Below are positions 1,312 to 46,485 of a DNA stretch of 64,000 bases, one piece after another. This DNA is from an uncultured Gammaproteobacteria bacterium. Lineage in GTDB: Bacteria > Patescibacteriota > Microgenomatia > UBA8517. Below the pieces are notes generated by a model. It worked only from the letters and a program-made list of their open reading frames with translations, did no database searches and was not told where the DNA came from. The stretch lies in contig CAZTVZ010000002.1 of assembly GCA_964617045.1 (NCBI GenBank), positions 76,095 to 140,094 of the forward strand, given 5' to 3'. The position numbers and the translations under genes were made by a program. Position 1 is the first letter of the stretch. The number at the start of each line of letters is the position of its first letter.

Positions 1312-1343
1312 GCAGAAGGGAATAATAGCTGTAAAATATACGT

Positions 1344-3162: not shown

Positions 3163-3163
3163 A

Positions 3164-3925: not shown

Positions 3926-4941
3926 GAGCAGCAATTGTAAATCCATATTTTGACACCCTAGGAGGAGGAGAAAGATACACATTGGCGGTTGCCACAACCT
4001 TAAGAGATGAAGGATATAACGTTTCCCTTGAATGGAAAGATGAAAGTATAAAAAAGAAACTGGAAGAAAGATTTGGGATAGATTTAACTGGTATCCAGAT
4101 TGTCGATGATGTTAAAAGAGGAGACGGATATGATGTTTGTTTCTGGGTTTCTGACGGAAGCATTCCAACCCTTAAGGCAAGGAAAAACATTCTTCATTTT
4201 CAGGTACCGTTCCACGATGTAAACGGAAAAACACTTATCAATAAAATGAAGTTATTCAGGATAAACAAGGTGATATGTAATTCTCATTTCACTAAAAAAG
4301 TAATTGACGAAGAATTTGGAATATCAAGCGAAGTTGTTTATCCTCCGGTATCTGTAGGAACAATAAAACCGAAGAGAAAAGAAAACATAATCTTATTTGT
4401 TGGTAGATTTTCTCAACTGAAGCAATCCAAAAATCAAGATATATTAGTTGCGGCGTTTCGAAAGTTTTACAACAAGGATCATAAAGAATGGAAAATGGTT
4501 CTATGCGGAGGAACCGAAGTTGGAGGGAAAGAATATTTGGAAGAATTGAAAAAAGAAGCAAAATGTTTTCCGATTGAATTTGTCGAGAATCCTCCTTTTA
4601 AAGTAGTTGCAGATTTATATGGAAGAGCAAAAATTTTTTGGTCGGCAGTTGGATATGGTGCAAAACCCAGTGAGCCGGAAAAGGTAGAGCACTTCGGTAT
4701 TACAGTCGTTGAAGCGATGGCCGCAGGAGCAACACCGGTTGTATATGATGCGGGTGGATATAAAGAATCTGTCGAAAACGGAGTAAACGGATATAGATGG
4801 AACAAAGTATCAGAGCTAATAAAGTTAACAGAAAAAATAATTGATAAAAAAGAATACGTAAAAATGTCAAAAGCAGGAGCGGAGAAAAGTAAGAAATATT
4901 CATATCAAGAATTCTCCAACGAATTTAAAAAATATCTGTAA
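3922..4941 (+). CDS. Glycosyltransferase family 4 (GT-B, retaining)
   Basis: ATGA overlap with upstream gene. C-terminal 'FGITVVEAMAAGATPVVYDAGG' E-x7-E GT4 motif. Confidence 0.7.
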   Translation: MRAAIVNPYFDTLGGGERYTLAVATTLRDEGYNVSLEWKDESIKKKLEERFGIDLTGIQIVDDVKRGDGYDVCFWVSDGSIPTLKARKNILHFQVPFHDVNGKTLINKMKLFRINKVICNSHFTKKVIDEEFGISSEVVYPPVSVGTIKPKRKENIILFVGRFSQLKQSKNQDILVAAFRKFYNKDHKEWKMVLCGGTEVGGKEYLEELKKEAKCFPIEFVENPPFKVVADLYGRAKIFWSAVGYGAKPSEPEKVEHFGITVVEAMAAGATPVVYDAGGYKESVENGVNGYRWNKVSELIKLTEKIIDKKEYVKMSKAGAEKSKKYSYQEFSNEFKKYL

Positions 4942-6458
4942 TGATAAATAGGAAAAACTTAATTACTACCGCATTTCTCATTCTTATATTTGGATTATCT
5001 GTTCTTTTGAGAATGCTTTTTGTTAAATACGGTTCGATATTATTTAGTTATGATCAGGCACGAGACGCCTTCATGGCAAAAGAAATAATTGCAGGAGATT
5101 TGAAAATAATGGGACCACCGGCGTCTATTTTACAAGGACTAAGTCACGGAGTAATTTGGTATTATCTTCTTGCAATATTTTATTCGATTGGACAAGGAAG
5201 TCCTATTGTGGCGGCTTATTCTTACGGGGTAGTTGTTTCTTTGTCGATTTTTTCAATATTCCTTTTGAGTAAAACATTATCCGGTAATGGCAAAATCGGA
5301 TTGGTATCAGCTTTGCTCTGGGCTGTATCTTTTGAAGGAATTCAATATTCAACATGGCTTTCAAATCCTTCGTTGGCATTTATTTTTACCCCCTTAATAT
5401 ATTTGTTTTTATGGTTATGGATAGAAAAGAAAAAATCCATTTATGCACTTGCAGCGGGAATCTTTCTTGGATTATCCGTTCAGGCGAATTTATTTTTAAT
5501 ATATCATTTAATTTCGATAGCAATACTCCTTCTTATTAATAGGGTAAAAATATTATCGAAGCATTCACTTCTATTTGTTGTCGCATTTTTGGTATCAATA
5601 TCAACTTTAATACTGGAGCAGATTAAATTCGGTTTTGCCGGAATCAAAGGAGTTGTGTTCCTTCTGTCCGGAACGGACAAATTCGTGAGTTCAACAGGAT
5701 TTGGTGACTTTTTGATTAATTATTTAAACCAGATTGGGACAGTATTTTCGAATAATCTTTTTCCATATAATCACGCTTTTGGTGGATTGTTGGGAACTAT
5801 TGTTGTTGTATTGACAATTAAGAAATTAATTCAAGACGAGAAAAGGCATAATTGGACCCTCTATATTCTTGTCTTTATGTTTTCTCAAATAATTATTTCA
5901 ATGTTTGGGGGAATGAGCACTCCGTATATCGGAGTTGGTTTGGGTGTGGCAATAATTATTTTAACGACCAACTTAATATTTTCGATCAAATCGTCTGTCG
6001 TTAAAATTCTGACTATTCTGTTTTTTGTATGCATTGGAATATCAACTGTATTTACAAAAGCCGATAAAAGTATTTTTGCAATTCAGGAAGAAATGCGAAT
6101 AGACATAACCCAAGAACTGATTGATTATACTTATCAGGAAAGTAATGGAGAGAAGTTTTCAATTAATACGGTTACGGCTCCCTTGTGGGTTAATACAACC
6201 TGGTCGTATTTATACAAATGGTATGGAATGGAAAAATACGGATATTTACCCAATTTTATTGGAAGAGATCAAATTGGACAAATTGATCAGCTCGGTAGCG
6301 GAAAGCCGGAAAAAACAATATACCTCATTATCGAACCAAGTATTGCCATCCCACAAAGATATATAGATGCTACAATTGCTGAAGAAAATGCGAGATCAAA
6401 AGTTCTTGAAGAGAAAAATTGGAAAACACTTATCGTTCAAAAAAGAATATTAAAATGA
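4941..6458 (+). CDS. Polytopic membrane protein, ArnT/GT-C-like putative glycosyltransferase
   Basis: TAATG overlap. About 11 TM segments. First-loop motif 'SYDQARDAFMAKEIIAGDL' resembles the DExRYAxI motif of ArnT/GT83-type GT-C enzymes. Soluble C-terminal domain. Confidence 0.45.
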   Translation: MINRKNLITTAFLILIFGLSVLLRMLFVKYGSILFSYDQARDAFMAKEIIAGDLKIMGPPASILQGLSHGVIWYYLLAIFYSIGQGSPIVAAYSYGVVVSLSIFSIFLLSKTLSGNGKIGLVSALLWAVSFEGIQYSTWLSNPSLAFIFTPLIYLFLWLWIEKKKSIYALAAGIFLGLSVQANLFLIYHLISIAILLLINRVKILSKHSLLFVVAFLVSISTLILEQIKFGFAGIKGVVFLLSGTDKFVSSTGFGDFLINYLNQIGTVFSNNLFPYNHAFGGLLGTIVVVLTIKKLIQDEKRHNWTLYILVFMFSQIIISMFGGMSTPYIGVGLGVAIIILTTNLIFSIKSSVVKILTILFFVCIGISTVFTKADKSIFAIQEEMRIDITQELIDYTYQESNGEKFSINTVTAPLWVNTTWSYLYKWYGMEKYGYLPNFIGRDQIGQIDQLGSGKPEKTIYLIIEPSIAIPQRYIDATIAEENARSKVLEEKNWKTLIVQKRILK

Positions 6459-7105
6459 AACAAATATCCAAAACTGCAGAGGAACTACACGAACAAGTAC
6501 CAGCAAACTGGTATTATGAGTCTTTAAAAGTTGATCCTTTTCAAAGGTATTGGCACAAAAGAAGATTTGATGAAGTATCAAAAGTGATTAGTCCGGTTAA
6601 AGGAGAAATTCTTGATATTGGAAGTGCCGACGGAATGTTCTCCAAAGTGATACTTGATAAAACCGGTGCGAAAAAATTAATCGGTATCGATGTTCTCAAA
6701 AAATCTGTTGATTGGGCAAATAAACATTGGAAAAAATATCCGATGAAATTTATGGTTGGTGATGCACACAAGTTAAGTTTTAGATCAGGAACCTTTGATG
6801 CGGTTTTTGCATTAGAAGTATTAGAGCATGTTCATAAACCGGTTGAAGTTTTTAAAGAAATAAAAAGAATTCTCAAAAAGAACGGATACGGAATGTTTTT
6901 AGTTCCTTCGGATAATTTTCTTTTTAGAACAATTTGGTGGTTATGGTTACATTTTTACCCCAGAGGATGGGTATGGAAAGAAACGCACATACAAACGTAC
7001 AGAAATAATTATTTGACGAAGGTATGTAAGAAGTCCGGTTTCAAAATTGAAGAGGATAAGAAATTTATTTTGGGTATGTTACATTTAGTAAAGGTTAGAA
7101 AATAA
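6455..7105 (+). CDS. Class I SAM-dependent methyltransferase
   Basis: ATG at 6455 (ATGA overlap; the track's TTG at 6419 is less likely). Motif I 'ILDIGSADGMFS', motif post-I 'LIGIDV', 'FDAVFALEVLEHV'. Confidence 0.7.
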   Translation: MKQISKTAEELHEQVPANWYYESLKVDPFQRYWHKRRFDEVSKVISPVKGEILDIGSADGMFSKVILDKTGAKKLIGIDVLKKSVDWANKHWKKYPMKFMVGDAHKLSFRSGTFDAVFALEVLEHVHKPVEVFKEIKRILKKNGYGMFLVPSDNFLFRTIWWLWLHFYPRGWVWKETHIQTYRNNYLTKVCKKSGFKIEEDKKFILGMLHLVKVRK

Positions 7106-7996
7106 ATGGAAGTATCTATAGTAATACCAAATTATAATGGTAAAGAAATAATCGAGAAGAATTTGCCTCACGTATTAAAAGCAAAAAAATATTTGGGTAA
7201 TAATATCAAGGAAATAATCATTGTTGACGACGGATCGTATGACGACAGTGTAAATTTTATTAAAAAAAGTTTTCCCGAAATCAGATTAATCGTTCACAAA
7301 AAAAATAGAGGTTTTTCTTGTGCTGTTAACACCGGTGCCAGGATGTGTAAAGGGGATCTGATCTGCTTACTAAATTCCGATGTTGTTCCCGAAGAGAAAT
7401 TCTTGGTGAATTCATTGCCTCATTTTAAAGACAAAAAGGTTTTTGCCGTATCACTAAGGGAGAGAGGTTATTCGTGGGCAACAGGCAACTTTCTTAACGG
7501 TTATCTGCACCATGAACAAGGTACGGTTTCCGACAAGACACACTATTCTTTGTGGGCAAGTGGGGGGAGCGCCTTGTTTAGAAGATCAACATGGATGGAG
7601 CTCGGAGGAATGGACGAAAAGGTATTTTCTCCGTTTTACTGGGAGGACATCGATTTATCATATCGGGCAACCAAAAGGGGATATGATGTTTTGTGGGAAC
7701 CGGGATCGGTTGTCGATCACAAACACGAATCCACCGTAAGTAAATTGTCCAAGAAATATGTACAACGAATAAGGGAAAGAAACGAACTTTTGTTTATTTG
7801 GAAAAATATTCATAGTAAGAAATTCATCAGAAATCATATAGGAGCCTTACTTAAAAGGATTATTAAACATCCGGGATATTTGGTTATTTTTGTAATGGCC
7901 TTATCGAAGTTGGGAATTGCCTTGAAAGCAAGGAAGAAAGAAATTAAAGAATCAAAACTTTCCGATGAAGCAGTGTTTCAAAGAGTAACAGCATGA
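7106..7996 (+). CDS. Glycosyltransferase family 2
   Basis: 'VSIVIPNYNGKEII', 'IIIVDDGSYDDS', 'LNSDV', 'YWEDIDLSYRA'. Confidence 0.7.
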   Translation: MEVSIVIPNYNGKEIIEKNLPHVLKAKKYLGNNIKEIIIVDDGSYDDSVNFIKKSFPEIRLIVHKKNRGFSCAVNTGARMCKGDLICLLNSDVVPEEKFLVNSLPHFKDKKVFAVSLRERGYSWATGNFLNGYLHHEQGTVSDKTHYSLWASGGSALFRRSTWMELGGMDEKVFSPFYWEDIDLSYRATKRGYDVLWEPGSVVDHKHESTVSKLSKKYVQRIRERNELLFIWKNIHSKKFIRNHIGALLKRIIKHPGYLVIFVMALSKLGIALKARKKEIKESKLSDEAVFQRVTA

Positions 7997-8817
7997 AACC
8001 ATCAATATCAATTGTTATCGTTAATTACAACACAAAGGATTTGATTGTTGATTGCATCAATTCTATTAAGAAAGACGGTCCCAACGATGCTGAAATAATT
8101 GTGGTGGACAACAATTCAACTGATGGTTCCGTTGAAGCAATCAATAAACTAAAGGGTATAAAAACAATTTTCAACGATAATAATACCGGTTTTGCATTTG
8201 CCAATAATCAAGGAATAAAAATTGCCAAAGGCAAATATGTATTTCTTCTAAACTCTGATACTTACCTTACAAAAGGAGCACTGGAAGATTTGATGAAATT
8301 TGCAGACGAACACGATGATGCGGGTGTCGTTGGTCCCAGACTCCTTAATATTGATAAATCCTTGCAGTATTCATGTTTTCGTTTTCCGACAATTACCAAT
8401 GCTATTAAACAATATTGGTTTGGGGAAAAAGGGCTTTTTGACAAATATGTTCCGGGACTGGATAAACCTTACGAGGTGGATGCTGTTGTCGGCGCGGCTT
8501 TTTTGATGACTCCCAAAGCTCTCGAAAAAGTAGGGGGGTTAGATGAAAGATATTTCTTCTATTTTGAAGACTTGGCTTACTGTAAAAGAGTTCACGAAAA
8601 AGGTTTGAAAGTGTACTATTATCCTAAGCCAAAAATTGTTCACTATCACGGGGCTAGTATTAAAAAAGTAGAAACAGAAGATGCGGGAAGATGGAAGAGA
8701 ATGATCCCTTCCAGTAAGATTTACCACGGCCTCTTCAAGCATTACCTTTTAACCTTTATAATGTTACTAGGCCAGAAATGGTCTAAGTTATATGAAGTTT
8801 TTAAGAAAAATTCGTAA
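7993..8817 (+). CDS. Glycosyltransferase family 2 (rhamnosyltransferase-like)
   Basis: ATGA overlap. 'ISIVIVNYNTKDLIVDCINSI', 'IIVVDNNSTDGS', 'LNSDT', 'YFEDLAYCKR'. Confidence 0.75.
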   Translation: MKPSISIVIVNYNTKDLIVDCINSIKKDGPNDAEIIVVDNNSTDGSVEAINKLKGIKTIFNDNNTGFAFANNQGIKIAKGKYVFLLNSDTYLTKGALEDLMKFADEHDDAGVVGPRLLNIDKSLQYSCFRFPTITNAIKQYWFGEKGLFDKYVPGLDKPYEVDAVVGAAFLMTPKALEKVGGLDERYFFYFEDLAYCKRVHEKGLKVYYYPKPKIVHYHGASIKKVETEDAGRWKRMIPSSKIYHGLFKHYLLTFIMLLGQKWSKLYEVFKKNS

Positions 8818-10486
8818 AGATCTCCCGTATCTGTTTTTTATCCTGCTGTTGACACTTCCGGTATTCATTCGCTTAATAAGACCCGGCTATTTTGTGATGC
8901 AGGATGATCTGCAGGCATTTAGAACCCAGCAGATGGATAAGTGTTTTGAAGATAAGCAATTGCCTTGCAGGTGGGTTCCTGATGCGGGATACCAATACGG
9001 TTATCCTCAGTTTAATTATTATCCGCCATCCGTATATTACTTTAGTGCTTTACTTCATAGAGCGGGTTTCCAGTATATAGATGCAGTTAAGGCAATGTTT
9101 GTGTTGGGATACGTAGTGTCTGCAATTACGATGTATCTATTGGCAAGTTCGGTTTTTAAAAACAGATGGATAGGGTTTGTTTCTTCTCTTTTATATACTT
9201 ATATTCCCTACAAGGCCGTGGAGGTATATGTCAGAGGAGCCTTAAACGAATTTTGGGCTCTTTCCTTTTTCCCGCTTGTTCTTTGGGCATCATATAGATT
9301 AATAAAAAAGGACAAGAAAAAATATCTTCTCTGGTTATCTATTGCCATTGCACTTCTTTTGACGACACACTCACTAACGGCCATGATTTTTATTCCGTTT
9401 GCCGCAGTCTGGGTATTCTTTTGGATATTTCGATTTAAAAAAGAAGTATTCAATAAAAAATTGATTGCCTCCTTGCTTCTAGGTTTTGGTTTATCTGCTT
9501 TTTTTGTATTACCGATGATGTTGGAAAAACAGTATGTTCATGTAGATTCGGTTCTTTCTGGATATTTTGATTACAGGCAACACTTTGTATCACTATATAA
9601 ATTGTTTATCTCGAGAGAATGGGGATACGGTTCTTCAGGATTTCCCAACGAACTTCTTAACCTGTCGGTTGGTGTCGTTCAGTGGGGAGCTGGAATACTT
9701 GCAGTAATCGTAAGCATTCTAAACTTCAAAAAGAAAAACAAATCATATGCCTATCTCGGAATTACGTTGGGTCTAATGACGATTTTCTCCTTGTTCATGA
9801 TTCATATGAAATCCAGTTTTATTTGGACAATGCTACCATTTCTTAAATGGTTGCAATTCCCTTGGAGATTTCTTTCTATTTCAATTGTCTTACTTCCTGT
9901 GTTGGTCGGTGTTTTATTGCATTACACCGGCAAAGCAAAATACGTTATCGGTTCACTGCTTGTTGTCGGAGCAATATTGCTGAATATTCAATTTTTTAAA
10001 GAAAAAGAATGGTTAAACATTACGGATCAGGGCAAATTCTCCGGTCAATATTGGGAAAAACAACTGACAATAAGTATTTTTGATTATCTTCCAATATATG
10101 CGACTCTTCCTCCTGTGGAAAAAGCTCCCGCAGAGCCGGAAGTTTTGGAGGGTGTAGCCAAATTTGAGAATTACGAAAAAGGATCAAATTGGCAAAAAGG
10201 AAAAGTAAAAGTTGAAACCGAAAAGGCCCTTTTGAGAGCTCCGATATACGATTTTCCGGGAATGACTGTTTCTTCATCGGAAAAAATTGTTAAACATATA
10301 AATAATGACTGTCGGGGACAAGAGTTTTGTTTAGGGCTGGTAACTTTTGAACTTGAAAACGGAGACCATGATATTAAAATCGAACTAAAAGATACTCCGA
10401 TAAGAACAATCGGAAATTATTTATCGATATTTTCTGTTTTGTACCTTATTTTCCTTATACTTAAGAGAAATGATGACTTTAATTAA
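8792..10486 (+). CDS. Unclassified GT-C-like polytopic membrane protein (module copy 1 of 3)
   Basis: N-terminal TM then loop 'MQDDLQAFR...QLPCRWVPDAGYQYGYPQFNYYPPSVYY', 'YKAVEVYVRGALNEFWAL', 'REWGYGSSG', 'LQFPWRFLS'. About 12 TM segments, soluble C-terminal domain and a terminal TM anchor. Family uncertain (YfhO- or PTPS-related-like?). Confidence 0.45.
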   Translation: MKFLRKIRKDLPYLFFILLLTLPVFIRLIRPGYFVMQDDLQAFRTQQMDKCFEDKQLPCRWVPDAGYQYGYPQFNYYPPSVYYFSALLHRAGFQYIDAVKAMFVLGYVVSAITMYLLASSVFKNRWIGFVSSLLYTYIPYKAVEVYVRGALNEFWALSFFPLVLWASYRLIKKDKKKYLLWLSIAIALLLTTHSLTAMIFIPFAAVWVFFWIFRFKKEVFNKKLIASLLLGFGLSAFFVLPMMLEKQYVHVDSVLSGYFDYRQHFVSLYKLFISREWGYGSSGFPNELLNLSVGVVQWGAGILAVIVSILNFKKKNKSYAYLGITLGLMTIFSLFMIHMKSSFIWTMLPFLKWLQFPWRFLSISIVLLPVLVGVLLHYTGKAKYVIGSLLVVGAILLNIQFFKEKEWLNITDQGKFSGQYWEKQLTISIFDYLPIYATLPPVEKAPAEPEVLEGVAKFENYEKGSNWQKGKVKVETEKALLRAPIYDFPGMTVSSSEKIVKHINNDCRGQEFCLGLVTFELENGDHDIKIELKDTPIRTIGNYLSIFSVLYLIFLILKRNDDFN

Positions 10487-13400
10487 CAAATATTGGAGAT
10501 TAATTGTAATTACCCTTCTTGGGTTTGCAATTGCTCTACCACTACTAACAAAAGGACCTTTTGCCAATCACGACGAAATGAACCCGATTAGATTTTTGGC
10601 AATAAAAGATTGTATTGAAGACGGACAGTTTCCGTGTAGATGGTCAAAAGATTTAGGTTGGGGGAATGGGTTCCCGATATTCAATTATTATGCACCGGGA
10701 CCTTACTATTTGGGAGCTGTGCTTAGCGAAGTTGTAGGTTACATTAATGCAGAAAAATTATTGGTTTTATTTTCTTTGGTTGCCGGTGGAATGGGCATGT
10801 ATATATTTGTTAAAAAACTTTACAACGAAAACGCCGGGTTCGTTGCCGGTGTACTGTATACAATTGCTCCTTATAAAGCCGTAGATATTTATGTACGTGG
10901 TGCCTTGTCCGAAGCGATGGCACTAGCCATAGTACCGTTTCTATTCCATTTTGCTTATCTTCTTATCAAAGACAAAGAGAAAAAGTACTTTATTTCTTTT
11001 TCCATAACTCTGTTTTTCTTCTTAACAACTCACAACATAATGACGATACTCTTTATCCCGCTTCTTGCACTATTTTCGATAATCATTTTATTTAAAGAAG
11101 GATTGAAAAAGTTACCACTCCTCATTACATCCGGATTGTTGGGGGTTGGATTGTCGGCATTCTATCTATTACCAGCCTTTTTTGAAAAAAAACTTGTTAG
11201 AGTCGATACACTTACCGGAGACTATTATAATTTCCAGAACCATTTTGTATCCCTTAAGCAAATGTTTATTAGTAATTATTGGGGATACGGTTCTTCGGGG
11301 CCTGGACTTGCCGATGGAATGTCGTTCCAAGTCGGGTATGTTCATTGGGCAATTGCTTTAATTGCACTTCTTTTCATAGCAATTAGAGTAATCAACAAAA
11401 AAGTTGCTCTTCAGACCGTATTGTTTGGAATAGTATTTATTCTTTCCGTTTTTATGATGCATAACAAATCTGCCTTTATTTGGCAGATAATACCACTGCT
11501 TAATTATTTACAATTCCCGTGGAGGCTCCTATCGCTTGTTATATTTACGTCTTCGATTTTGGGGGGTTATGTTATAACCCAATTAAAAGGAAAAATTCTT
11601 GATGTTTCCATTATTCTTGTGTCGGTTATTGCGATAATAATTAATTTCAATTATTTCAAACCCGAAAAGTTTTATACCGAATATAATGATCAAAGTTTGT
11701 TTGTCGGAAAAGTGTGGGAAGATCAAAGAAGTGGAATTCTTCTTGATTACCTTCCTGTGGGAGCAATAGAAGCAAGGGAGCCTGCCTCTTCAGTACCATT
11801 AATCAGAGAGGGAGACGGAATTATCTATTCGTACGTCGTTAGATCAAATAGTTTTTCGTTTAAATATATTGCCCAGGAAAATTCATTGTTGGAAATACCC
11901 GTATACTATTTTCCCGAATGGGAGTTGAAAGTTGACGGAAAAGAGAAGGATATTATTAAAAGTGACGTGGGAAGGATCATGGTTGAATTGGAGAAGGGAA
12001 GTCATGAAATAAAAGGTGTTTTTGGGGATACTCCTCTAAGGGATTTCTCAAATTTGTTAAGTCTTCTGTCTTTCCTTGTCCTTGCATTTTTACTGCTCAG
12101 GAAAAGAGTAGAGAAGATAAATATCGATAAAAGGATTGTTGTATTGGCACTTGTATTATCGATTCCTGCTATCTGGAGTTTTATATCCAAGGGTTTATAC
12201 GGGTTTTCGGATGATTCACATATTGGTTGGATGTATGAAATGGATAGGGCAGTCAAGTCTTTCAAATTTCCACCCAGGTTTGTTCCCGACTTAAGCTACG
12301 GATTTGGATATCCCTTGTTTACATTTGTGTATCCTTTGCCTTTCTATCTCGGTGAAGTCTTTCATCTTCTTGGTATGACCCTTGTCGGGAGTTTCAAAAT
12401 GGTTTTGGCATTATCAATTCCCCTCTCAATGCTTGCAATGTACAAATTCCTTAGAGAGTTTATGAAGAAAGAATATTCATTATTGGGATCTGTGATATAT
12501 GTATATGCCCCATATCGGGCAACGGAACTATTTGTAAGGGGAGCGATAGGGGAGATAGTGGCATTTATCTTTATTCCACTTGTTGCGTGGTCTTTCGTCA
12601 AACTAACCAAAGAAAAAAACACAAAATGGATTGCGGCATCGGCATTATCTGTTGCAGCCCTAATTATGTCGCACAATATTATGGCATATATGTTTATGCC
12701 CTTTGCGCTTCTCCTCTTGGTTTTAAGAATTGTTTTCGTTTATCGTAACGATATATCTCAGTATGTTCGTGGATTTATATCAATAATTTTTGGACTTGTT
12801 ATTTCAATATATTTTTGGCTTCCTGCAATAGTGGAAAGCTCGCTGATGCAATACTCCACGGTATTTAATTATTTGGATCATTTTCCGACACTAAAACAAC
12901 TCGTTACTCCTTACTTCGGTCACGGAGCGTCTGTCCCCGGACCATATGACGGAATATCCTTCTATATTGGAGTAATTGGGTTATTTATTGCTCTCGTGGG
13001 AATAGTCCACTTTTTCTTAAAAAGAAATGACTATACCCGGGAGGAAAAAGTATTTGTTGTTTGGGGAATTATTATGTTAGGTGTTTCGGTGTTTATGATG
13101 AATCACCGATCAGCCTTTATCTGGGAAGCAATACCGCTGATTAAATACTTCCAATTCCCGTGGAGATTTTTGGTCCCCGTAATATTTTCTTTGCCGATAT
13201 TCCTAATTGCGTTTGAAAAAAATAGCCCTATTAAATACGCACCCGGGATTTTAGTTATCCTTACAATTCTTGTAAATTCTCAATATTTTATTCCGGAAAG
13301 TTTTTTGGGTAGAACCGATGATTATTATTTAAAAAGATTTGTTCCTTATCCGATTGCAAGCGAAGAGTACAAAACGACTTCCGAGGAGTATTTGAGATTG

Positions 13401-13754
13401 CCTCTTGGTCAAACTGAAAGACCAAAAGAAACAAGGCCTTTGGTTGAAGGAGCGAAAGGTGTTAGGGGAATTGTAAATCTGAATGCCTATGACACTATTA
13501 TATATACCGATTATCCTCAAAGTTTCGTCTTGAATTATAATAAGTATATGTATCCTGGATGGACCGCCCTTGTTGACGGTGTTCCGGCGGATATAAAAGT
13601 GGGAAGTCCTTACGGACAAATCTCATTGGATATTCCAAGAGGAGCACATAAAATTGAAATATATTATAAAGAGACACCATTCAGAACAATTCTGAACATT
13701 GTTTCTTTGGCAGGTTTTATAACTGCAATATATTTATTAGTACGCAAAAAATGA
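10470..13754 (+). CDS. Tandem-duplicated (fused) GT-C-like membrane protein, two modules of the same family as 8792..10486
   Basis: 1094 aa. Module 1 (aa about 1-545): 'NHDEMNPIRF...QFPCRWSKDLGWGNGFPIFNYYAPGPYY', 'YKAVDIYVRGALSEAMAL', 'GYGSSG', 'LQFPWRLLS'. Module 2 (aa about 550-1094): 'SDDSHIGWMYEMDRAV...FPPRFVPDLSYGFGYPLFTFVYPLPFY', 'YRATELFVRGAIGEIVAF', 'FQFPWRFLV'. The junction is in frame with no stop. Confidence 0.45.
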   Translation: MMTLINKYWRLIVITLLGFAIALPLLTKGPFANHDEMNPIRFLAIKDCIEDGQFPCRWSKDLGWGNGFPIFNYYAPGPYYLGAVLSEVVGYINAEKLLVLFSLVAGGMGMYIFVKKLYNENAGFVAGVLYTIAPYKAVDIYVRGALSEAMALAIVPFLFHFAYLLIKDKEKKYFISFSITLFFFLTTHNIMTILFIPLLALFSIIILFKEGLKKLPLLITSGLLGVGLSAFYLLPAFFEKKLVRVDTLTGDYYNFQNHFVSLKQMFISNYWGYGSSGPGLADGMSFQVGYVHWAIALIALLFIAIRVINKKVALQTVLFGIVFILSVFMMHNKSAFIWQIIPLLNYLQFPWRLLSLVIFTSSILGGYVITQLKGKILDVSIILVSVIAIIINFNYFKPEKFYTEYNDQSLFVGKVWEDQRSGILLDYLPVGAIEAREPASSVPLIREGDGIIYSYVVRSNSFSFKYIAQENSLLEIPVYYFPEWELKVDGKEKDIIKSDVGRIMVELEKGSHEIKGVFGDTPLRDFSNLLSLLSFLVLAFLLLRKRVEKINIDKRIVVLALVLSIPAIWSFISKGLYGFSDDSHIGWMYEMDRAVKSFKFPPRFVPDLSYGFGYPLFTFVYPLPFYLGEVFHLLGMTLVGSFKMVLALSIPLSMLAMYKFLREFMKKEYSLLGSVIYVYAPYRATELFVRGAIGEIVAFIFIPLVAWSFVKLTKEKNTKWIAASALSVAALIMSHNIMAYMFMPFALLLLVLRIVFVYRNDISQYVRGFISIIFGLVISIYFWLPAIVESSLMQYSTVFNYLDHFPTLKQLVTPYFGHGASVPGPYDGISFYIGVIGLFIALVGIVHFFLKRNDYTREEKVFVVWGIIMLGVSVFMMNHRSAFIWEAIPLIKYFQFPWRFLVPVIFSLPIFLIAFEKNSPIKYAPGILVILTILVNSQYFIPESFLGRTDDYYLKRFVPYPIASEEYKTTSEEYLRLPLGQTERPKETRPLVEGAKGVRGIVNLNAYDTIIYTDYPQSFVLNYNKYMYPGWTALVDGVPADIKVGSPYGQISLDIPRGAHKIEIYYKETPFRTILNIVSLAGFITAIYLLVRKK

Positions 13755-15013
13755 AACGATTTATCGCAATAATTCTTACAATAGGGATACTTTTAAGAGT
13801 AGGCTTGGCTTTCAGCACTTTCCATGCGGATGTTCAGGCTTTTGATTTTGCCGGTAAGGTAATTGCGGAAGGAAATGTCCTAAATTTCTACGATTATTTA
13901 TGGAATCTTCCAAAAGAGGACCCCATTTTGGAAGTATACCCTCCATATTTATTCAACTATCCTCCGATGGTTTATTTTTTCCTTGGAGGAATTTCCAGAT
14001 TAACCACATGGATGGTTGATCCGTTGATTCACAATAACTTTATCTTTGATTTCCCTTCAACTTTGGGAAATATTAATTTGAATATCCTTCTTTTAATGCT
14101 TAAGCTACCGTATTTTCCTTTTGACATTGCTATTGCGTATCTTCTGATGCGCATGTTTAGTGAAGAAAAGAAAAAGAAATGGATTTTCGCTCTTTGGATG
14201 TTTAATCCAATTAACCTATATGCCACTTACATGATGGGGCAATTTGATATTATACCTACGTTTTTGACGATAGCTGCTCTTTATCTTGTCGTTAAGAATA
14301 AAGAAAGGATTGAGAATAGTAATTTACTATTACCGGCAGCACTTCTTGGTCTTGGGGCAGCATTCAAGATATTTCCTGCATTATTTATTGTTCCCCTTGC
14401 AACTTTGAAGAACAGTTGGTTAGACAGAATAAAAATAATCGCCGTTGGTTTCGGAGTTTATTTTATGACTAATTTTCCGTTTATCTTTTCGAAAGGCTTT
14501 CGTGCAACGGCAATGCTTGCTAATCAAACAACAAAAAGTTTGTATGCACAGATACCAATATCGGGCGGAGAATCCATAATCTTGTTTTTGGCTTTGGCGG
14601 TATTTGCATATATTGTGTTTTGGGTTAAAAAGGTTTTACCTGAAGATTTGTGGAAAAGATTTTTTGTAATGATTTTACTGTTTTTTGTATTTACCCATTA
14701 TCATCCACAATGGTTTCTTTGGCTTACTCCATTTTTACTGATTGATTATGTATATTCCGGCAATAAACACCTGGTTCCGATTAAGATATCGCTTTTGAGC
14801 TTTTTAGGACTACTTACATTCTTTGATCCGGGACTAACGGTATGGTTGTTCGCACCCATAAATAAAGCGCTATACGGCATGTCGGATTTATGGACTCAAA
14901 TCGGAATTAAGCCGGACGTTAATTATGCCAGAAGTATTTTGCATACATTATTTGTCGGTTCTGCACTATATTATATGTACATTCATTTCCCAAGAATTAC
15001 GAAAGGCGATTGA
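13751..15013 (+). CDS. Polytopic membrane protein, putative GT-C (DUF2029/GT87-like?)
   Basis: ATGA overlap. 420 aa with about 10 TM segments. First loop 'FHADVQAFDFAGKV...YPPYLFNYPP'. Family assignment is weak. Confidence 0.3.
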   Translation: MKRFIAIILTIGILLRVGLAFSTFHADVQAFDFAGKVIAEGNVLNFYDYLWNLPKEDPILEVYPPYLFNYPPMVYFFLGGISRLTTWMVDPLIHNNFIFDFPSTLGNINLNILLLMLKLPYFPFDIAIAYLLMRMFSEEKKKKWIFALWMFNPINLYATYMMGQFDIIPTFLTIAALYLVVKNKERIENSNLLLPAALLGLGAAFKIFPALFIVPLATLKNSWLDRIKIIAVGFGVYFMTNFPFIFSKGFRATAMLANQTTKSLYAQIPISGGESIILFLALAVFAYIVFWVKKVLPEDLWKRFFVMILLFFVFTHYHPQWFLWLTPFLLIDYVYSGNKHLVPIKISLLSFLGLLTFFDPGLTVWLFAPINKALYGMSDLWTQIGIKPDVNYARSILHTLFVGSALYYMYIHFPRITKGD

Positions 15014-16986
15014 TGAACGTTACATTGGATATCTTAAAATTCTTTGCATTCTTCCTAATAGTATTTTTTATCCCGGGCTATGTACTTACGAGAAATGCGG
15101 ATATTAAATCAAAAGCAGGAAAGATATTTATTGCTACGGTATTGGGGTTTGCACTTTCAACGGTCACTTATTATCTTCACTCGGTTATTTTTTCTCTTTA
15201 CGTGATTATTCCTTCGATTATTTTTATCATTGGCGGGTATTACAAAGATTTCAGGGGTTTAAAACTACCCCAAAAGAAGGGTCACTTAATTATCTTGGGT
15301 TTAATTATTGCCCTTGGAACATTTTTCCAAAACAACTTAACCTTCAGAACGGGTCTTAATTACGAGTATGGAATCGGTTTTTGGAGTGCGCTTGCGCACG
15401 ATGGAGTTTGGCACCAGGCGCTAATTGCTCAGCTTACCAAAAATATTCCTCCTTTGAATCCCGCTTTGTCCGAATTTACGCTTACAAACTATCATTATTT
15501 TTACGATTTGCTTTTGGCGATAGTAAACAAAATTACTTTAATACCGATTGCCGATTTGGTTTATCGTTATTTTCCAATCATATTTTCTTCTCTTCTGGGA
15601 ATAGGAAGTTATCTTTTAACGGTTAAAATATTCAAAAAAGAAAGTGCAGGAATATTCGCAGCATATTTTTCCTATTTCGGAAGTAGCTTTGGGTGGATTG
15701 TCGAACTTTTTAGAGGAGGAGAAATTATTGCGGGCGAATCCAATTTTTGGGCCAACCAACCCGTTTCTCTAAACATCAATCCTCCATTCGCAATTTCACT
15801 AATATTTTTAATTACCGTCCTATATTTGTTTTCTCTTTATGAAGAAAAACGAGATTATTGGTTATTAGGACTTATGGCAATAATTGCCGGGTTAACAATT
15901 GAGTTTAAAGTATACGGAGGTTTAATTATTCTTTCTTCCTTGCTGGTTCTGGCAATTAAGAAGGCTTTATTTGATAAAGACAGGGTTTTACTGGTGTACG
16001 TATTGATTGCAATCGGTATTGCTGCCGGAGTTTTTATTCCCAATAGTAAGGGAAGTGCATCTTTTGTTACCCTTGTTCCTTTTTGGATTATTCACTCGAT
16101 GATAGATATTGTTGATCGGGTTGGTTGGTGGAGATTGTCTCTGTCGAGGACGGTCGGTTTGGCAGAAAAAGATTGGGTTAAATTTATTGGAGCCGAAGGT
16201 GTCGGATTAATACTGTTCATTTTGGGAAATATCGGGACAAGAATGATTGCTTTTGCGGCACTTCTTTTGATACCGGCAAAAGAATGGTTTAAAAACAATT
16301 CTTATCTGATTTTAATAATTGTTTCCGGAGCATCCGTACTTCCAACGTTGTTATTCGTTCAAAAATCAGACCCTTGGAATATTATTCAATTTACATATTA
16401 TTTTCTTTTTATCGCGGCTATTGTTGCCGCTTACGTTCTCTCGATATTTTTCGAAAAATCAAAAAAATGGGTAGTAATCGTTGGGTTGACGCTTTTATTT
16501 GTGATTACCCCGTTGAGTTCTTTGGGTTCATTCAGAAGTGGATTTCAGGGAAACCCGACATATTTGGATAAAGGCGAACTTGAAGCGTTGAATTATCTTA
16601 AAACGCAAGAAGATGGGGTGGTTCTTACATATCCGTACAATCAGTATCTCAGGTACAGTACCGAAAAAAGACCACTTCCTTTGTGGGCCTATCAAACCAG
16701 TGCATATGTATCAGCTTATTCTCAAAAAGTGACATACCTGGAAGATATGATGCAGCAGGGAATACTTGATGCAGACTTTAAAGACAGAATCAAAAAGATG
16801 GAAGACTTTTTTACCAATAATATGCTGCAACAAGGAGAGGACTCCTTTATTAAAGAAGCAAATATCACTTACGTATACATTCCGCAGGATTTAAGAAGAA
16901 TGGTTAACACCAAACTTCCTTCGGCAAAAATAATATTTGAGAACGAAGGGGCGGTAATATTCAAATATGACTTTACAACTAATTAA
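15013..16986 (+). CDS. Polytopic membrane protein, uncharacterized family (paralog A), putative GT-C-like
   Basis: ATG at 15013 (TGATG overlap). Motifs shared with 16967..18973: 'AHDGVWHQA', 'NYHYFYD', 'YRYFPIIFSSLLGIGSY', 'KKESAGI', 'FWANQ', 'QTSAYVSAYSQKVTY'. C-terminal soluble domain. Confidence 0.4.
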   Translation: MNVTLDILKFFAFFLIVFFIPGYVLTRNADIKSKAGKIFIATVLGFALSTVTYYLHSVIFSLYVIIPSIIFIIGGYYKDFRGLKLPQKKGHLIILGLIIALGTFFQNNLTFRTGLNYEYGIGFWSALAHDGVWHQALIAQLTKNIPPLNPALSEFTLTNYHYFYDLLLAIVNKITLIPIADLVYRYFPIIFSSLLGIGSYLLTVKIFKKESAGIFAAYFSYFGSSFGWIVELFRGGEIIAGESNFWANQPVSLNINPPFAISLIFLITVLYLFSLYEEKRDYWLLGLMAIIAGLTIEFKVYGGLIILSSLLVLAIKKALFDKDRVLLVYVLIAIGIAAGVFIPNSKGSASFVTLVPFWIIHSMIDIVDRVGWWRLSLSRTVGLAEKDWVKFIGAEGVGLILFILGNIGTRMIAFAALLLIPAKEWFKNNSYLILIIVSGASVLPTLLFVQKSDPWNIIQFTYYFLFIAAIVAAYVLSIFFEKSKKWVVIVGLTLLFVITPLSSLGSFRSGFQGNPTYLDKGELEALNYLKTQEDGVVLTYPYNQYLRYSTEKRPLPLWAYQTSAYVSAYSQKVTYLEDMMQQGILDADFKDRIKKMEDFFTNNMLQQGEDSFIKEANITYVYIPQDLRRMVNTKLPSAKIIFENEGAVIFKYDFTTN

Positions 16987-18973
16987 CACCCTATTGATGG
17001 GAGCACTTTTCCTGTTTATTTATTTCGGAGTTATATATCCCGTTGGTTATTTAATTGTTAGAAAATTCAACAAATTATTGAAACCGGTTGAGGTTTTTGG
17101 TCTTTCTATGGCAATATCCATCGTTCTATTTATAGGGATAGCGATTTTGTTCGGAATACTTAAAATTCGGTTTCTGGTTCTTCCGTTGGTGGTTGGAATT
17201 ACCCTTGCAACCTATTGGAAATATAGATTCCCTGTTATCGATTCAATTTTGGTTGTATTCAAAAATAAAATTCTGTTACTTCTTTCCGTAGTGGCGATTA
17301 TCGTTCAAGGAATAATCAATTTTCCCAGCGGGTATTTATATGGCAATGGATATCAATTTTGGAGTTCTCAGGGGAACGACGGATTGTGGCATGTTGCGGT
17401 AATGGAAGAAATTAAAAAGAGTATGCCGATAGAAAACCCGATATACTACGGAGAAAAATTATATAACTATCACTATTTGACCGACGTCTTTATGGGTGAA
17501 TTTGCTCGTTTGTTCCCGTCTTTTACCTCACTCGATTTGTACTTCAGATATTTCCCGATTGTTTTCTCTCTTCTTATCAGTATCGGCGCATATGCTTTCG
17601 TGAGTAGATGGAGTAAATCGGAAAGTGCGGGATATTGGGCAATATTTTTTTCCAGTCTTTCCGGCGGCTTTGGGTATATCGTTACGTTAATAAAAGAAGG
17701 AAGATTGTTTGCCGGAGAAACCATTTTCTGGGCTGCTCAGGGAAACACAATAATAGGGAATCCTCCCCATGCAGTTGCTTACGGTTTGCTGGCAATGTTT
17801 TTACTTTCGATCGCAATATATCTGGAAACAAGAAAGAAAGAAATACTGCTTCTTTCCATATTAACCGGTGCTTTTGTTGCTGGTTTTAAAGTATCCGGTG
17901 GATTTATCCTTTCTGCCGGAATAATTGCTGGAGGATTATTTGATTTTCTTGTTAACAGAAAAAAAGAGATGGTATATATTCCTGTGATTGTTGGTTTATT
18001 AAACTTCGTAACACTTAAGCTTATGACCAAGGGTGCAGATAGTTTTTTGATTTTCGAACCATGGTGGTTTGTCAGAACAACGATTGTTGCGGATGGAAGA
18101 GTCGGAATAATAGATATGGAATTAAGAAGGCAACATTATCTTTCTTTGGGAACTTTTAAAGCAACCTTAAGAGTAATACAACTTGAAGTTGAAGCCTTCC
18201 TTATGTTTTTTGTCGGCAATATGAGTACGCGAATAATCGGATTCTTTCTTATCTTTGCAAATGGGTTTAAGGGGGTTGGAAAGTTCTTTAAAGATACGAT
18301 GAGTATCATTTTAATTTCTTCCGCCTTGGCGGGATTGGGAATAGTACTTCTATTTGTTCAGAAGGGAATAGCATACAATCTTATTCAGTTTTTCCAATAC
18401 TCTATTTTGATAATGGGTTTTTTGAGTGCCGCAGCAATGCCAATTATTTTGAAAAGGATTAAACCAAAAATAATTAAAACTGCATTTGCTTTTTTGATAA
18501 TAATAATTTCCGTACCGACTGTTATTGGTAATGTTGTCGAATTTTACGGAAAAGGACGATCAGCATTGGCCGTCGTCAGCAACAGCGAAATTGAAGCCTT
18601 AGAATATTTAAAAACATCAACACCAAATGATTCGGTAATTCTTACATACCCATTCGATGGAAATGCCCATTATGGGTATAAAGAACAACCATGGCCGATA
18701 TCAGTGTGGTACTCGACAGCTTACGTTTCTGCACTTTCCTCTAGAAAAACATATTTCAGCAATGAAGGGCAGGTTGATATATTAGGTATTCCAATTAAAG
18801 AAAGAAGAGAAGAAGTACTGGCCTTTTTCAATGACCCGAAGATTGATAGAAAACAGTATCTGAATGATAAAGGAATAGATTATGTTTACGTTCTTAAAAA
18901 AGATTATCCCAAACAGTTGGATTTGGAAATATATTATGAGAGTAGAGACGTTATAATTTACTGGAATATATGA
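16967..18973 (+). CDS. Polytopic membrane protein, uncharacterized family (paralog B), putative GT-C-like
   Basis: 'GNDGLWHVA', 'NYHYLTD', 'FRYFPIVFSLLISIGAY', 'KSESAGY', 'FWAAQ', 'STAYVSALSSRKTY'. Tandem paralog of 15013..16986. Confidence 0.4.
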   Translation: MTLQLINTLLMGALFLFIYFGVIYPVGYLIVRKFNKLLKPVEVFGLSMAISIVLFIGIAILFGILKIRFLVLPLVVGITLATYWKYRFPVIDSILVVFKNKILLLLSVVAIIVQGIINFPSGYLYGNGYQFWSSQGNDGLWHVAVMEEIKKSMPIENPIYYGEKLYNYHYLTDVFMGEFARLFPSFTSLDLYFRYFPIVFSLLISIGAYAFVSRWSKSESAGYWAIFFSSLSGGFGYIVTLIKEGRLFAGETIFWAAQGNTIIGNPPHAVAYGLLAMFLLSIAIYLETRKKEILLLSILTGAFVAGFKVSGGFILSAGIIAGGLFDFLVNRKKEMVYIPVIVGLLNFVTLKLMTKGADSFLIFEPWWFVRTTIVADGRVGIIDMELRRQHYLSLGTFKATLRVIQLEVEAFLMFFVGNMSTRIIGFFLIFANGFKGVGKFFKDTMSIILISSALAGLGIVLLFVQKGIAYNLIQFFQYSILIMGFLSAAAMPIILKRIKPKIIKTAFAFLIIIISVPTVIGNVVEFYGKGRSALAVVSNSEIEALEYLKTSTPNDSVILTYPFDGNAHYGYKEQPWPISVWYSTAYVSALSSRKTYFSNEGQVDILGIPIKERREEVLAFFNDPKIDRKQYLNDKGIDYVYVLKKDYPKQLDLEIYYESRDVIIYWNI

Positions 18974-20574: not shown

Positions 20575-20596
20575 CAATCTGTTATTATCTTCCCAA

Positions 20597-21337: not shown

Positions 21338-21409
21338 TTAATTACGAGATACTCTTGAAAACACCATTTCTCAGCCATTTAGAGCCTTTTTGTATTAAAA
21401 TAGAATAGT

Positions 21410-24666: not shown

Positions 24667-24707
24667 CAATCTTCCAATTCCATAATATTGTCGTATAATT
24701 GGCCATA

Positions 24708-25973: not shown

Positions 25974-25987
25974 TATACTTCATATAT

Positions 25988-32286: not shown

Positions 32287-32292
32287 AGATAT

Positions 32293-34010: not shown

Positions 34011-34011
34011 T

Positions 34012-41287: not shown

Positions 41288-41288
41288 A

Positions 41289-41305: not shown

Positions 41306-41324
41306 TAATGATAAAATTCAGATA

Positions 41325-45110: not shown

Positions 45111-45129
45111 TTTTGTTATTTCTCTTTAA

Positions 45130-46482: not shown

Positions 46483-46485
46483 CAA

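What the first reader, a model, noticed from the sequence alone, without database searches (positions are those of the whole stretch)
8792..13754. Tandem triplication of an unclassified GT-C-like module, two copies fused into one 1094-aa protein
Three consecutive copies of the same roughly 550-aa module share an acidic first-loop motif (MQDD / NHDE / SDDSHIGWMYEMD), '(Q)FPCRW..D.G.G.G(Y/F)P.FN(Y/F)Y.P.PYY', 'YKAV(E/D).YVRGA(L/I).E', 'GYGSSG' and 'LQFPWR(F/L)L'. Each has a soluble C-terminal domain and a final TM anchor. Copies 2 and 3 form a single in-frame ORF; the TM anchor of copy 2 runs straight into TM1 of copy 3. The D(D/E) loop fits a GT-C catalytic site, but I cannot place the family confidently (possibly YfhO-like or PTPS-related membrane protein). 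A tandem-duplicated GT-C enzyme in one polypeptide would be unusual.
Basis: seen in the sequence. Interest (0 to 1): 0.75.

Follow-up and report, generated by a model that had tools for sequence, protein, structure and literature searches.

The report
Three membrane sugar-transferase paralogs, two fused
Three related membrane glycosyltransferase modules (GT-C fold, Pfam family PF10131) sit side by side in a huge cell-surface sugar gene cluster of a Woesebacteria-like ultra-small bacterium; two of them are genuinely fused into one protein, which is a rare but recurring arrangement in this family rather than a new kind of enzyme.

Summary
ORFs 8792..10486 (564 aa, m1) and 10470..13754 (1094 aa, m2+m3) contain three full-length homologous modules: m1/m2 38% identity (E 6e-102) and m1/m3 27% (E 2e-57).

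The fusion is not an artefact. The identical gene appears in two other assemblies, strain variants keep the same length, and orthologous fused ORFs at 45-50% identity lie at the same position in two other lineages.

It is also not a recent triplication. The order m1-m2-m3 is conserved across 14 further Woesebacteria/Microgenomates species genomes, where m2 and m3 are separate, usually overlapping genes. In some relatives m1 is fused to the upstream GT2 instead.

Each module has 12 TM helices with both ends in the cytoplasm, so modules can be concatenated. Other multi-module proteins exist in the family.

Most likely function (inferred): three non-redundant glycosyltransferases that use a polyprenyl-phosphate-sugar donor and act outside the membrane, with m2~m3 as a covalent pair. 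I rate it a new variant of a known kind, of moderate interest.

The parts
7106..7996 (+). GT2 family glycosyltransferase (GT2a), 296 aa, first of two cytoplasmic GT-A enzymes directly upstream
   Evidence: Pfam PF00535 at 82 bits and PF13641 at 74 bits. PDB sequence matches cover only the N-terminal ~100-170 residues: chondroitin synthase, weaker ArnC/DPMS/GtrB. It is syntenic in L001 and L009.
7993..8817 (+). GT2 family glycosyltransferase (GT2b), 274 aa; its end overlaps the m1 start by 26 nt. In many relatives it is fused in frame to m1 (~800-aa GT2~module proteins).
   Evidence: Pfam PF00535 at 107 bits. Fusion proteins P0004-P0035 carry PF00535 plus PF10131. In L007 and L009 the GT2b ortholog (46-56% id) and the m1 ortholog (58-59% id) form one ORF. 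Its PDB relatives are generic soluble GT2s, not specifically DPMS/GtrB.
8792..10486 (+). Module 1 (m1), 564 aa: a complete PF10131 GT-C module with 12 TM helices, N-in/C-in topology, an extracytoplasmic beta-sandwich at aa ~450-532 and a C-terminal TM anchor at aa 536-557
8900..8908 (+). m1 acidic motif QDD (aa 37-39) in the first extracytoplasmic loop; D38 is the putative catalytic base
   Evidence: D38 is invariant in alignment A2 (17 sequences) and at least 90% conserved in A1 (77 sequences). Position.
10470..12113 (+). Module 2 (m2), aa 1-548 of the 1094-aa ORF: a complete PF10131 / YfhO-like GT-C module; acidic motif HDE at aa 34-36 (nt 10569-10577)
   Evidence: As a stand-alone sequence it scores PF10131 68.8 bits and YfhO 38.7 bits. 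It is 38% identical to m1. Orthologs in 14 further genomes are separate genes of ~523-571 aa. It keeps all family-invariant residues.
12033..12185 (+). Fusion junction: the m2 C-terminal TM anchor (aa 522-549), the basic cytoplasmic linker RKRVEKINIDKR (aa 544-555, nt 12099-12134) and TM1 of m3 (aa 552-572)
   Evidence: Secondary structure from the AF2 fused model. The sequence is identical in two independent assemblies. The same anchor-basic linker-TM1 layout is present in fused orthologs P0002 and P0003. In unfused relatives the m2 stop and m3 start overlap out of frame by 13-59 nt in 11 of 13 genomes.
12114..13754 (+). Module 3 (m3), aa 549-1094: the most divergent complete PF10131 GT-C module; acidic motif SDD at aa 580-582 (nt 12207-12215) and QFPWR at aa 895-899
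   Evidence: PF10131 at 47.4 bits when scanned alone. It is 27% identical to m1. The AF2 pLDDT of this half is ~90. A search with m3 gave 775 homologs, and the best 120 are all stand-alone proteins of 522-569 aa at 47-59% identity, from Woesebacteria/Microgenomates where a source names them.
13751..15013 (+). GT87-family GT-C membrane glycosyltransferase, translationally coupled to the fused gene by a 4-nt overlap
   Evidence: Pfam PF09594 GT87 at 36.6 bits against a cut-off of 25. A gene of about the same size (412-421 aa) follows m3 in L001, L007 and L009; of these only the L007 gene carries a GT87 hit on record.
29056..29712 (+). DPMS/ArnC-like GT2 (polyprenyl-phosphate sugar synthase candidate) in the same cluster; a possible source of the lipid-linked donor
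   Evidence: phmmer against PDB: P. furiosus dolichol-phosphate mannose synthase 5mlz at E 1.5e-13 over the full length, and ArnC at E 2e-6. A second, weaker candidate is 20558..21337.

Best explanation
**What it is.** The region encodes three paralogous, complete GT-C-fold membrane glycosyltransferase modules of Pfam family PF10131 (PTPS_related, the nearest Pfam neighbour of YfhO). They form an ancient, order-conserved cassette m1-m2-m3 in Woesebacteria/Microgenomates (Patescibacteria).

**Module anatomy.**
- Each module has 12 TM helices with both termini in the cytoplasm.
- The active site faces outward. It is built from an invariant Asp in the first external loop plus the invariant R-G-A..E, H, E and QFPWR motifs.
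- An external beta-sandwich domain is followed by a C-terminal TM anchor.

**The fusion.**
- In this lineage m2 and m3 have become one 1094-aa polypeptide. The simplest origin is a frame change in the short out-of-frame overlap that separates the two genes in relatives.
- The N-in/C-in topology makes such head-to-tail concatenation harmless.

**Inferred mechanism (not shown).**
- The modules take a sugar from a polyprenyl-phosphate-linked donor on the outer face of the membrane and add it to a cell-surface glycopolymer or glycoprotein. The donor would be made by GT2 enzymes of the same cluster and then flipped.
- The three paralogs do different, non-redundant steps.
- m2 and m3, and GT2b with m1, probably work in physical association. 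This would be a covalent version of the Pmt1-Pmt2 or EmbA-EmbB type of GT-C pair.
For: **Shown**
- Module homology.
- PF10131 above its cut-off for each module, and PF10131 is in the GT-C clan.
- A high-confidence model whose top structural matches are exclusively GT-C-fold proteins.
- All family-invariant residues are kept in all three modules.
- All of those residues lie on the predicted outer side, with a strong positive-inside bias.
- The fusion is reproduced in independent assemblies and strain variants and in orthologs at 45-50% identity with the same neighbours.
- The m1-m2-m3 order is conserved in 14 more species genomes.
- GT2~m1 fusions occur in relatives.
- Independent multi-module proteins exist in the family.
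- The cluster context includes DPMS-like GT2s, Wzx-like flippases, GT87, many PMT_2 genes and ManC.

**From established knowledge**
- YfhO-type GT-C enzymes use C55-P-sugar made by an adjacent GT-A enzyme (PMC5836110; review PMC8035078).
- Pmt1-Pmt2 and EmbA-EmbB are GT-C heterodimers (PDB 6p25 and 7bvf, as listed).
Against: - There is no biochemical evidence for any member of PF10131. The donor, acceptor and sugar are unknown.
- The GT2 next to, or fused with, m1 is not specifically DPMS/GtrB-like by sequence. Its role as donor synthase is therefore unproven.
- The m2~m3 fusion is a minority state and phylogenetically patchy. It could be neutral.
- The AF2 model of the fused protein has only moderate confidence in the m2 half and pTM 0.68. 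No inter-module interface can be claimed.
- No GtrA-type flippase was seen in the window.
Confidence: 0.65

Rival explanations
1. The fusion is functionally neutral. m2 and m3 act as independent enzymes without a specific complex, and the single ORF is just an accidental frame change in the overlap of two genes whose topology happens to allow concatenation.
For: - Only 3 of about 17 sampled lineages carry the fusion, and they are not monophyletic in NJ trees.
- In most unfused relatives (11 of 13 genomes) the genes overlap by 13-59 nt out of frame, so one indel is enough.
- The N-in/C-in topology removes any topological cost.
Against: - The m1-m2-m3 order and adjacency are strictly conserved over deep divergence.
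- The fusion is retained at 45-50% identity and in strain variants.
- Multi-module fusions recur independently in the family, and GT2~m1 fusions also occur. In general such fusions point to functional or physical coupling.
Confidence: 0.3
2. The modules transfer pre-assembled oligosaccharides or polymer blocks from a polyprenyl-diphosphate carrier (OST/PglB-, WaaL- or Wzy-like role) rather than single sugars from a polyprenyl-monophosphate donor.
For: - The Foldseek top hits are oligosaccharyltransferases AglB, STT3 and PglB.
- The cluster holds two Wzx-like flippases and a sub-threshold Wzy_C-like protein.
Against: - The closest sequence family, YfhO, uses C55-P-GlcNAc.
- The WGYGSSG motif lies in an external loop between TM7 and TM8, not in the C-terminal domain where the OST WWDYG motif sits.
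- DPMS-like synthases are present in the cluster.
Confidence: 0.15
3. One or more modules are catalytically dead scaffolds or substrate-binding subunits with a GT-C fold, as PIG-U/GAB1 are in GPI transamidase.
For: - m3 is the most divergent copy and alters several motifs: PPRF, FVRGA, GHGAS.
Against: - All 18 columns that are invariant across the family alignment are kept in m1, m2 and m3. These include D38, R148, H193, E245 and Q-F-P-x-R.
- In an alignment dominated by about 100 stand-alone m3 orthologs, D581 and the other invariant residues of the module family are at least 90% conserved.
Confidence: 0.1
4. The 1094-aa ORF is an assembly or sequencing artefact: a collapsed stop or frameshift between two genes.
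For: In most relatives m2 and m3 are separate genes.
Against: - There are 0 mismatches over 3282 nt in two independent Logan assemblies of different runs.
- Strain variants at 99.4-99.6% identity from ENA and Logan have the same 1093-aa length and no change at the junction.
- Orthologous fused ORFs of 1096 and 1120 aa appear in 6 further contigs from other samples.
Confidence: 0.02

Closest known systems
[quoted passage not shown]
   Same: All three modules score above the family's gathering threshold. The family is very large: 42,853 clusters at 50% identity match the module profile.
   Different: The Pfam model covers only about the first 350 residues of each module. No member has a known function. 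The architecture here is a conserved paralog trio with two modules in one chain.
YfhO (PF09586), the GT-C glycosyltransferase that adds GlcNAc from C55-P-GlcNAc to lipoteichoic or wall teichoic acid in Bacillus, Staphylococcus and Listeria, paired with the GT-A enzyme CsbB
   Same: - m2 passes the YfhO threshold.
- The beta-sandwich and TM-anchor end of the module matches the last ~70 positions of the YfhO model.
- A GT2 gene lies directly upstream, as csbB does for yfhO.
   Different: - PF10131 scores higher than YfhO.
- Modules are ~550 aa against ~850 aa for YfhO.
- No GtcA/GtrA flippase is seen.
- The adjacent GT2 is not clearly CsbB/GtrB-like.
- The acceptor is unknown.
Mycobacterial embC-embA-embB arabinosyltransferases (three tandem paralogous GT-C genes; EmbA-EmbB heterodimer, EmbC homodimer)
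   Same: - Three adjacent paralogous GT-C genes with extracytoplasmic carbohydrate-binding-type domains.
- GT-C fold shared.
- Two paralogs acting as a pair is a precedent for reading m2~m3 as a covalent pair.
   Different: - Emb proteins are ~1,050-1,100 aa single modules with periplasmic C-termini and are not fused.
- Different phylum and glycan.
Protein O-mannosyltransferases Pmt1-Pmt2 / Pmt4 (GT39) and ArnT (GT83)
   Different: - Pfam PMT_2 is below threshold for all modules.
- No MIR domain.
- The extra C-terminal beta-sandwich plus TM anchor gives N-in/C-in topology.

Membership tests
GT-C fold glycosyltransferase superfamily | Polytopic membrane core with the conserved GT-C helix arrangement | tested here: met
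   [not shown]
GT-C fold glycosyltransferase superfamily | Conserved acidic catalytic residue in the first extracytoplasmic loop | tested here: met
   D38 (m1), D35 (m2) and D581 (m3) align in one column. That column is invariant in A2 and at least 90% conserved in A1. It lies ~8 residues after TM1 on the side poor in K/R. Catalytic role not assayed.
GT-C fold glycosyltransferase superfamily | Uses a lipid-phosphate-linked sugar donor at the extracytoplasmic face | not testable with these tools
   Context only: DPMS-like GT2s, Wzx-like flippases and ManC lie in the same cluster.
Pfam PF10131 PTPS_related | Score at or above the curated gathering threshold (26.4 bits) | tested here: met
   m1 37.4, m2 68.8, m3 47.4 bits; the whole fused ORF scores 103.8 bits with 2 stretches.
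Pfam PF09586 YfhO | Score at or above the gathering threshold (28.5 bits) | tested here: inconclusive
   m2 alone scores 38.7 bits and the fused ORF 63.5 bits. m1 and m3 give no hit at E<=1. PF10131 scores higher throughout.
YfhO-type teichoic acid glycosylation system (CsbB-GtcA-YfhO) | Partner GtrB/CsbB-type membrane GT-A enzyme and a GtrA/GtcA flippase | tested here: not met
   The adjacent GT2b matches generic soluble GT2s, not GtrB/DPMS. No GtrA-family hit turned up in any ORF of at least 150 aa scanned, which is all but one of the + strand ORFs of that size; shorter ORFs, where a GtrA-sized protein would fall, were not scanned. DPMS-like GT2s do exist elsewhere in the cluster.
PMT_2 / GT39-GT83 (PMT, ArnT-like) | Pfam PF13231 at or above 26.1 bits | tested here: not met
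   23.0 bits (m1) and 20.4-21.9 bits (m3 region), all below the cut-off.
Oligosaccharyltransferase STT3/PglB/AglB | WWDYG motif in the C-terminal soluble domain and a sequence match to PF02516 | tested here: not met
   No STT3 Pfam hit. No PDB sequence hit even with a profile. The WGYGSSG motif lies in the TM7-TM8 loop, not in the C-terminal domain.

The most novel reading that the evidence does not exclude
m1, m2 and m3 form an obligate multi-subunit GT-C 'assembly line'. The GT2 would be docked on m1 and m2-m3 would form a heterodimer, covalent in this lineage. The complex would build a Woesebacteria-specific surface polymer stepwise on the outer face of the membrane from polyprenyl-phosphate sugars, analogous to arabinan synthesis by EmbA/B/C. 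The family's N-in/C-in module design would have evolved to allow concatenation into natural poly-GT-C enzymes of 2 to about 6 modules (for example the 3329-aa P0224).
Probability: 0.2. Interest if true: 0.6.

Novelty: new variant of a known kind. Interest (0 to 1): 0.38.

Why it matters
- PF10131 is one of the largest GT-C families with no assigned function. More than 10,000 clusters at 50% identity match the module profile at E<=1e-30.
- The conserved m1-m2-m3 cassette, with its alternative fusion states (GT2~m1 or m2~m3), gives 'Rosetta-stone' evidence for which proteins work together.
- A natural covalent GT-C pair would be a convenient target for cryo-EM and for testing whether GT-C paralogs act as heterodimers.
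- It also shows how much of a small Patescibacteria genome goes to surface glycans. This 64-kb window alone carries about 15 GT-C modules.
- It does not overturn any current view.

Tried and rejected
1. **Sequence search of solved structures** with a 77-sequence profile found no GT-C hit, only a weak 13-bit match of the beta-sandwich to a kinase-associated domain. The fold had to be established from a model.
2. **Building one MSA that covers both halves of the fused protein.** MAFFT pulls all single-module homologs onto the m3 half as soon as any m3-like sequence is present. The fused model was therefore run with a deep MSA for m3 only. The m2 half came out at pLDDT ~70, and I make no claim about the m2-m3 interface.
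3. **Foldseek of the fused model against afdb50**, to look for other double GT-C proteins. The library was not available.
4. **Testing whether the GT2 next to m1 is a DPMS/GtrB-type donor synthase.** PDB matches are generic, so this is inconclusive. Clearer DPMS-like GT2s lie elsewhere in the window.
5. **Testing whether the downstream paralog pair 15010/16967 belongs to the same module family.** hhalign gives probability 0.4%, so it is rejected.
6. **Literature search for tandem or dual GT-C proteins and for PF10131.** Nothing describes such fusions, and PF10131 is mentioned only as 'function unknown'.
7. **NCBIfam** gave no meaningful hit.
8. **The window's own species** was not found among the GTDB representative genomes (best 57% on a segment). 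The organism is inferred only from relatives, which are Woesebacteria/Microgenomates.


Full report
**1. Observation**

The two ORFs are as described: 8792..10486 (+, 564 aa) and 10470..13754 (+, 1094 aa). They overlap by 17 nt.

BLASTP of the short protein against the long one gives two full-length matches:
- 38% identity over 553 aa (E 6.5e-102) to residues 11-546.
- 27% identity over 576 aa (E 2.3e-57) to residues 545-1094.

I call the modules m1, m2 (aa 1-548 of the long ORF) and m3 (aa 549-1094).

- QDD / HDE / SDD in the first loop.
- PCRW / PCRW / PPRF.
- YVRGA / YVRGA / FVRGA.
- GYGSSG / GYGSSG / GHGAS.
- QFPWR in all three.

**2. What the module is**

Sequence evidence:
- Each module alone passes the gathering threshold of Pfam PF10131 (PTPS_related). 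Scores are m1 37.4, m2 68.8 and m3 47.4 bits against a cut-off of 26.4.
- m2 also passes YfhO PF09586 (38.7 against 28.5).
- PMT_2 stays below threshold.
- PF10131 is listed as a member of the Pfam GT-C clan CL0111 with unknown function (PMC7801869).
- No solved structure is detectable by sequence, even with a profile.

Structure evidence:
- An AlphaFold2 model of m1, built on a 77-sequence alignment, is very confident (pLDDT 95.3, pTM 0.94).
- Foldseek agrees.

The GT-C assignment is therefore well supported, and the module is classified rather than unclassified.

**3. Anatomy and topology**

The model has 12 membrane helices. A long first external loop carries short helices. A beta-sandwich domain spans aa ~450-532, and a final TM helix spans 536-557.

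Using these helices, K+R make up 39% of the predicted cytoplasmic loops but only 8-11% of the predicted external segments. This gives an N-in/C-in topology.

Eighteen columns are invariant across a 17-sequence family alignment. In m1 numbering they include D38, P72, F74, R148, A150, H193, P241, E245, G294, W345, Q355-F-P-x-R359, G524, T535 and R538. All of them are kept in m1, m2 and m3. The membrane-proximal ones all fall on the external side.

This fits an outward-facing GT-C active site with the loop-1 Asp as catalytic residue. That reading is inference from the family; nothing was assayed.

The last ~70 positions of the YfhO model match the beta-sandwich end and the start of the anchor. 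This C-terminal element is therefore shared with YfhO.

**4. Is the fusion real?**

Yes.
- The gene is identical (0 mismatches in 3282 nt) in two Logan assemblies of other sequencing runs.
- Two strain variants with 4 and 7 amino-acid changes, from ENA and Logan, have the same 1093-aa length. Neither has a change at the junction.
- Orthologous fused ORFs occur in two other lineages:
  - 1096 aa, 50% identity, in three Hainich groundwater contigs.
  - 1120 aa, 45-46% identity, in one NCBI MAG and two Logan runs.
- Each of these sits directly after an m1 ortholog.
- Modules are orthologous by position (m1-m1 52-61%, m2-m2 42-49%, m3-m3 48-53%). Paralogs are 25-38% identical.
- All three fused proteins have the same junction: TM anchor, short basic linker, TM1.
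- The AlphaFold model of the fused protein has pLDDT 78.6 and pTM 0.68. The m3 half is ~90. The m2 half is ~70 because its MSA was shallow.
- That model shows helix 522-549, a 2-residue break and helix 552-572. Both halves repeat the m1 secondary-structure pattern.

**5. It is an old cassette, not a local triplication**

A scan of one genome per GTDB species found 15 related loci. All are Woesebacteria/Microgenomates-type MAGs, although some carry placeholder titles.

ORF analysis shows the same order m1, m2, m3 in the 14 further species genomes that hold all three modules. There m2 and m3 are separate genes. In 11 of the 13 unfused genomes checked, the m2 stop overlaps the m3 start by 13-59 nt out of frame.

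A search with m3 alone gave 775 homologs. The best 120 are all stand-alone proteins of 522-569 aa at 47-59% identity.

In many relatives m1 is instead fused to the upstream GT2, giving ~800-aa PF00535+PF10131 proteins that are 57-61% identical to m1.

So the same four domains occur in two arrangements:
- (GT2~m1)(m2)(m3).
- (GT2)(m1)(m2~m3).

In NJ trees the three fused lineages are deep-branching and not monophyletic. The pattern needs either one old fusion with at least two later fissions, or three separate fusions. The trees are too weak to choose between these.

**6. How unusual is a tandem GT-C?**

A module profile searched against 1.84 billion representative proteins matched 42,853 clusters at E<=1e-3 and 10,434 at E<=1e-30. 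Among the top 150 by score, a few are multi-module:
- The window's own cluster.
- P0223: 1116 aa, two modules, only ~30% identical to the window protein and not orthologous to m2/m3.
- P0225: 1670 aa, about three modules.
- P0224: 3329 aa, at least four recognisable modules, with YfhO and PF10131 hits.
- Proteins of ~1300-1900 aa with a divergent module followed by a canonical one.

Fusion is therefore rare but recurrent. The N-in/C-in topology created by the C-terminal anchor explains why it is tolerated in this family. In PglB, ArnT and PMT the chain ends outside the membrane.

I found no paper describing tandem GT-C proteins in the searchable library.

**7. Context**

All of the 57 ORFs of at least 150 aa lie on the + strand except two short ones inside larger + strand genes. 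Nearly all that could be assigned are glycan-related:
- Two Wzx-like flippases.
- About a dozen GT2.
- About ten GT4.
- About nine PMT_2 GT-Cs.
- A GT87 translationally coupled to the fused gene.
- Methyltransferases.
- A hexapeptide acyltransferase.
- A sub-threshold Wzy_C-like protein.
- A ManC-like nucleotidyltransferase.

Two GT2s resemble dolichol-phosphate mannose synthase/ArnC:
- 29056..29712, at E 1.5e-13 over the full length.
- 20558..21337, at E 1.4e-6.

The GT2 adjacent to m1 is not specifically of that type.

**8. Mechanism**

Shown:
- Three intact PF10131 GT-C modules.
- Outward-facing conserved residues.
- A genuine, conserved m2~m3 fusion.
- A conserved cassette with alternative fusion partners.

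Inferred from what is established for YfhO-type and other GT-C systems (PMC5836110, PMC8035078):
- The modules use polyprenyl-phosphate sugars made by GT-A enzymes of the cluster and flipped outward.
- They decorate or build a surface glycopolymer or glycoprotein.
- The beta-sandwich probably helps bind the acceptor.

Retention of all three paralogs in fixed order argues for non-redundant steps.

The two kinds of fusion suggest physical coupling. The closest functional analogies are embC-embA-embB (three tandem GT-C paralogs, with an EmbA-EmbB heterodimer) and Pmt1-Pmt2. This last step is plausible but unproven, and neutral fusion remains a serious rival.

**9. Verdict**

- This is a member of a known but uncharacterised GT-C family in a variant architecture.
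- I rate it a new variant of a known kind, with interest about 0.38.

Noticed in passing
window 1..64000: The whole window is one co-directional glycan-biosynthesis super-cluster. It holds about 15 GT-C-type membrane modules (nine PMT_2, one GT87, three PF10131, plus an unassigned pair), about 12 GT2, about 10 GT4, two Wzx-like flippases, a Wzy_C-like protein, several methyltransferases and a ManC-like enzyme. No tRNA and no priming phosphoglycosyltransferase were detected.
   Followed up: partly
window 15010..16986 and 16967..18973: A second tandem paralog pair of large polytopic membrane proteins (658 and 668 aa, 30% identity, E 1e-73) has no Pfam family above threshold. It shows no profile similarity to the PF10131 module (hhalign probability 0.4%). 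Genes of matching size follow at the same position: both in L001 (652 and 673 aa) and one in L009 (647 aa).
   Followed up: partly
window 7993..8817 / 8792..10486; L007 5162..7609; L009 5936..8365: The GT2 gene that overlaps the m1 start by 26 nt is fused in frame with m1 in many Woesebacteria, giving ~800-aa cytoplasmic GT-A + GT-C proteins. This GT-A~GT-C single-chain architecture may deserve study in its own right.
   Followed up: partly
window 30000..40000: A low-GC island (GC 0.29 against ~0.36 elsewhere) sits inside the cluster. It holds several ORFs with no Pfam hit at E<=1e-5 (33051..34010, 34012..35304, 36088..36810, 36810..37718). It may be a horizontally acquired or fast-evolving glycan sub-cluster.
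   Followed up: no
window 43515..45110: A 531-aa protein carries two SAM-methyltransferase domains in tandem (two stretches each of Methyltransf_11/23/25). This is another intra-cluster domain duplication or fusion.
   Followed up: no
P0224 (3329 aa), P0225 (1670 aa), P0040 (1881 aa): Metagenomic proteins of the same family have three or more concatenated GT-C modules, with YfhO + PF10131 (+PMT_2) hits along one chain. P0225 also ends in a DUF3105 domain. Their genomic context and organisms were not examined.
   Followed up: partly
L004 13372..15103: In the GCA_023487645.1 locus the fused gene is followed by a fourth PF10131-like copy split into 354-aa and 224-aa ORFs (40% identity to m1 and 36% to m2). 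It may be a disrupted extra module.
   Followed up: no
output: The search with m3 alone did not list the window's own protein (P0001) or P0002/P0003 among its best 120 hits, although they contain m3 at 100% and ~50% identity. This is probably an effect of the word-based candidate pre-filter or of the listing, not biology.
   Followed up: no
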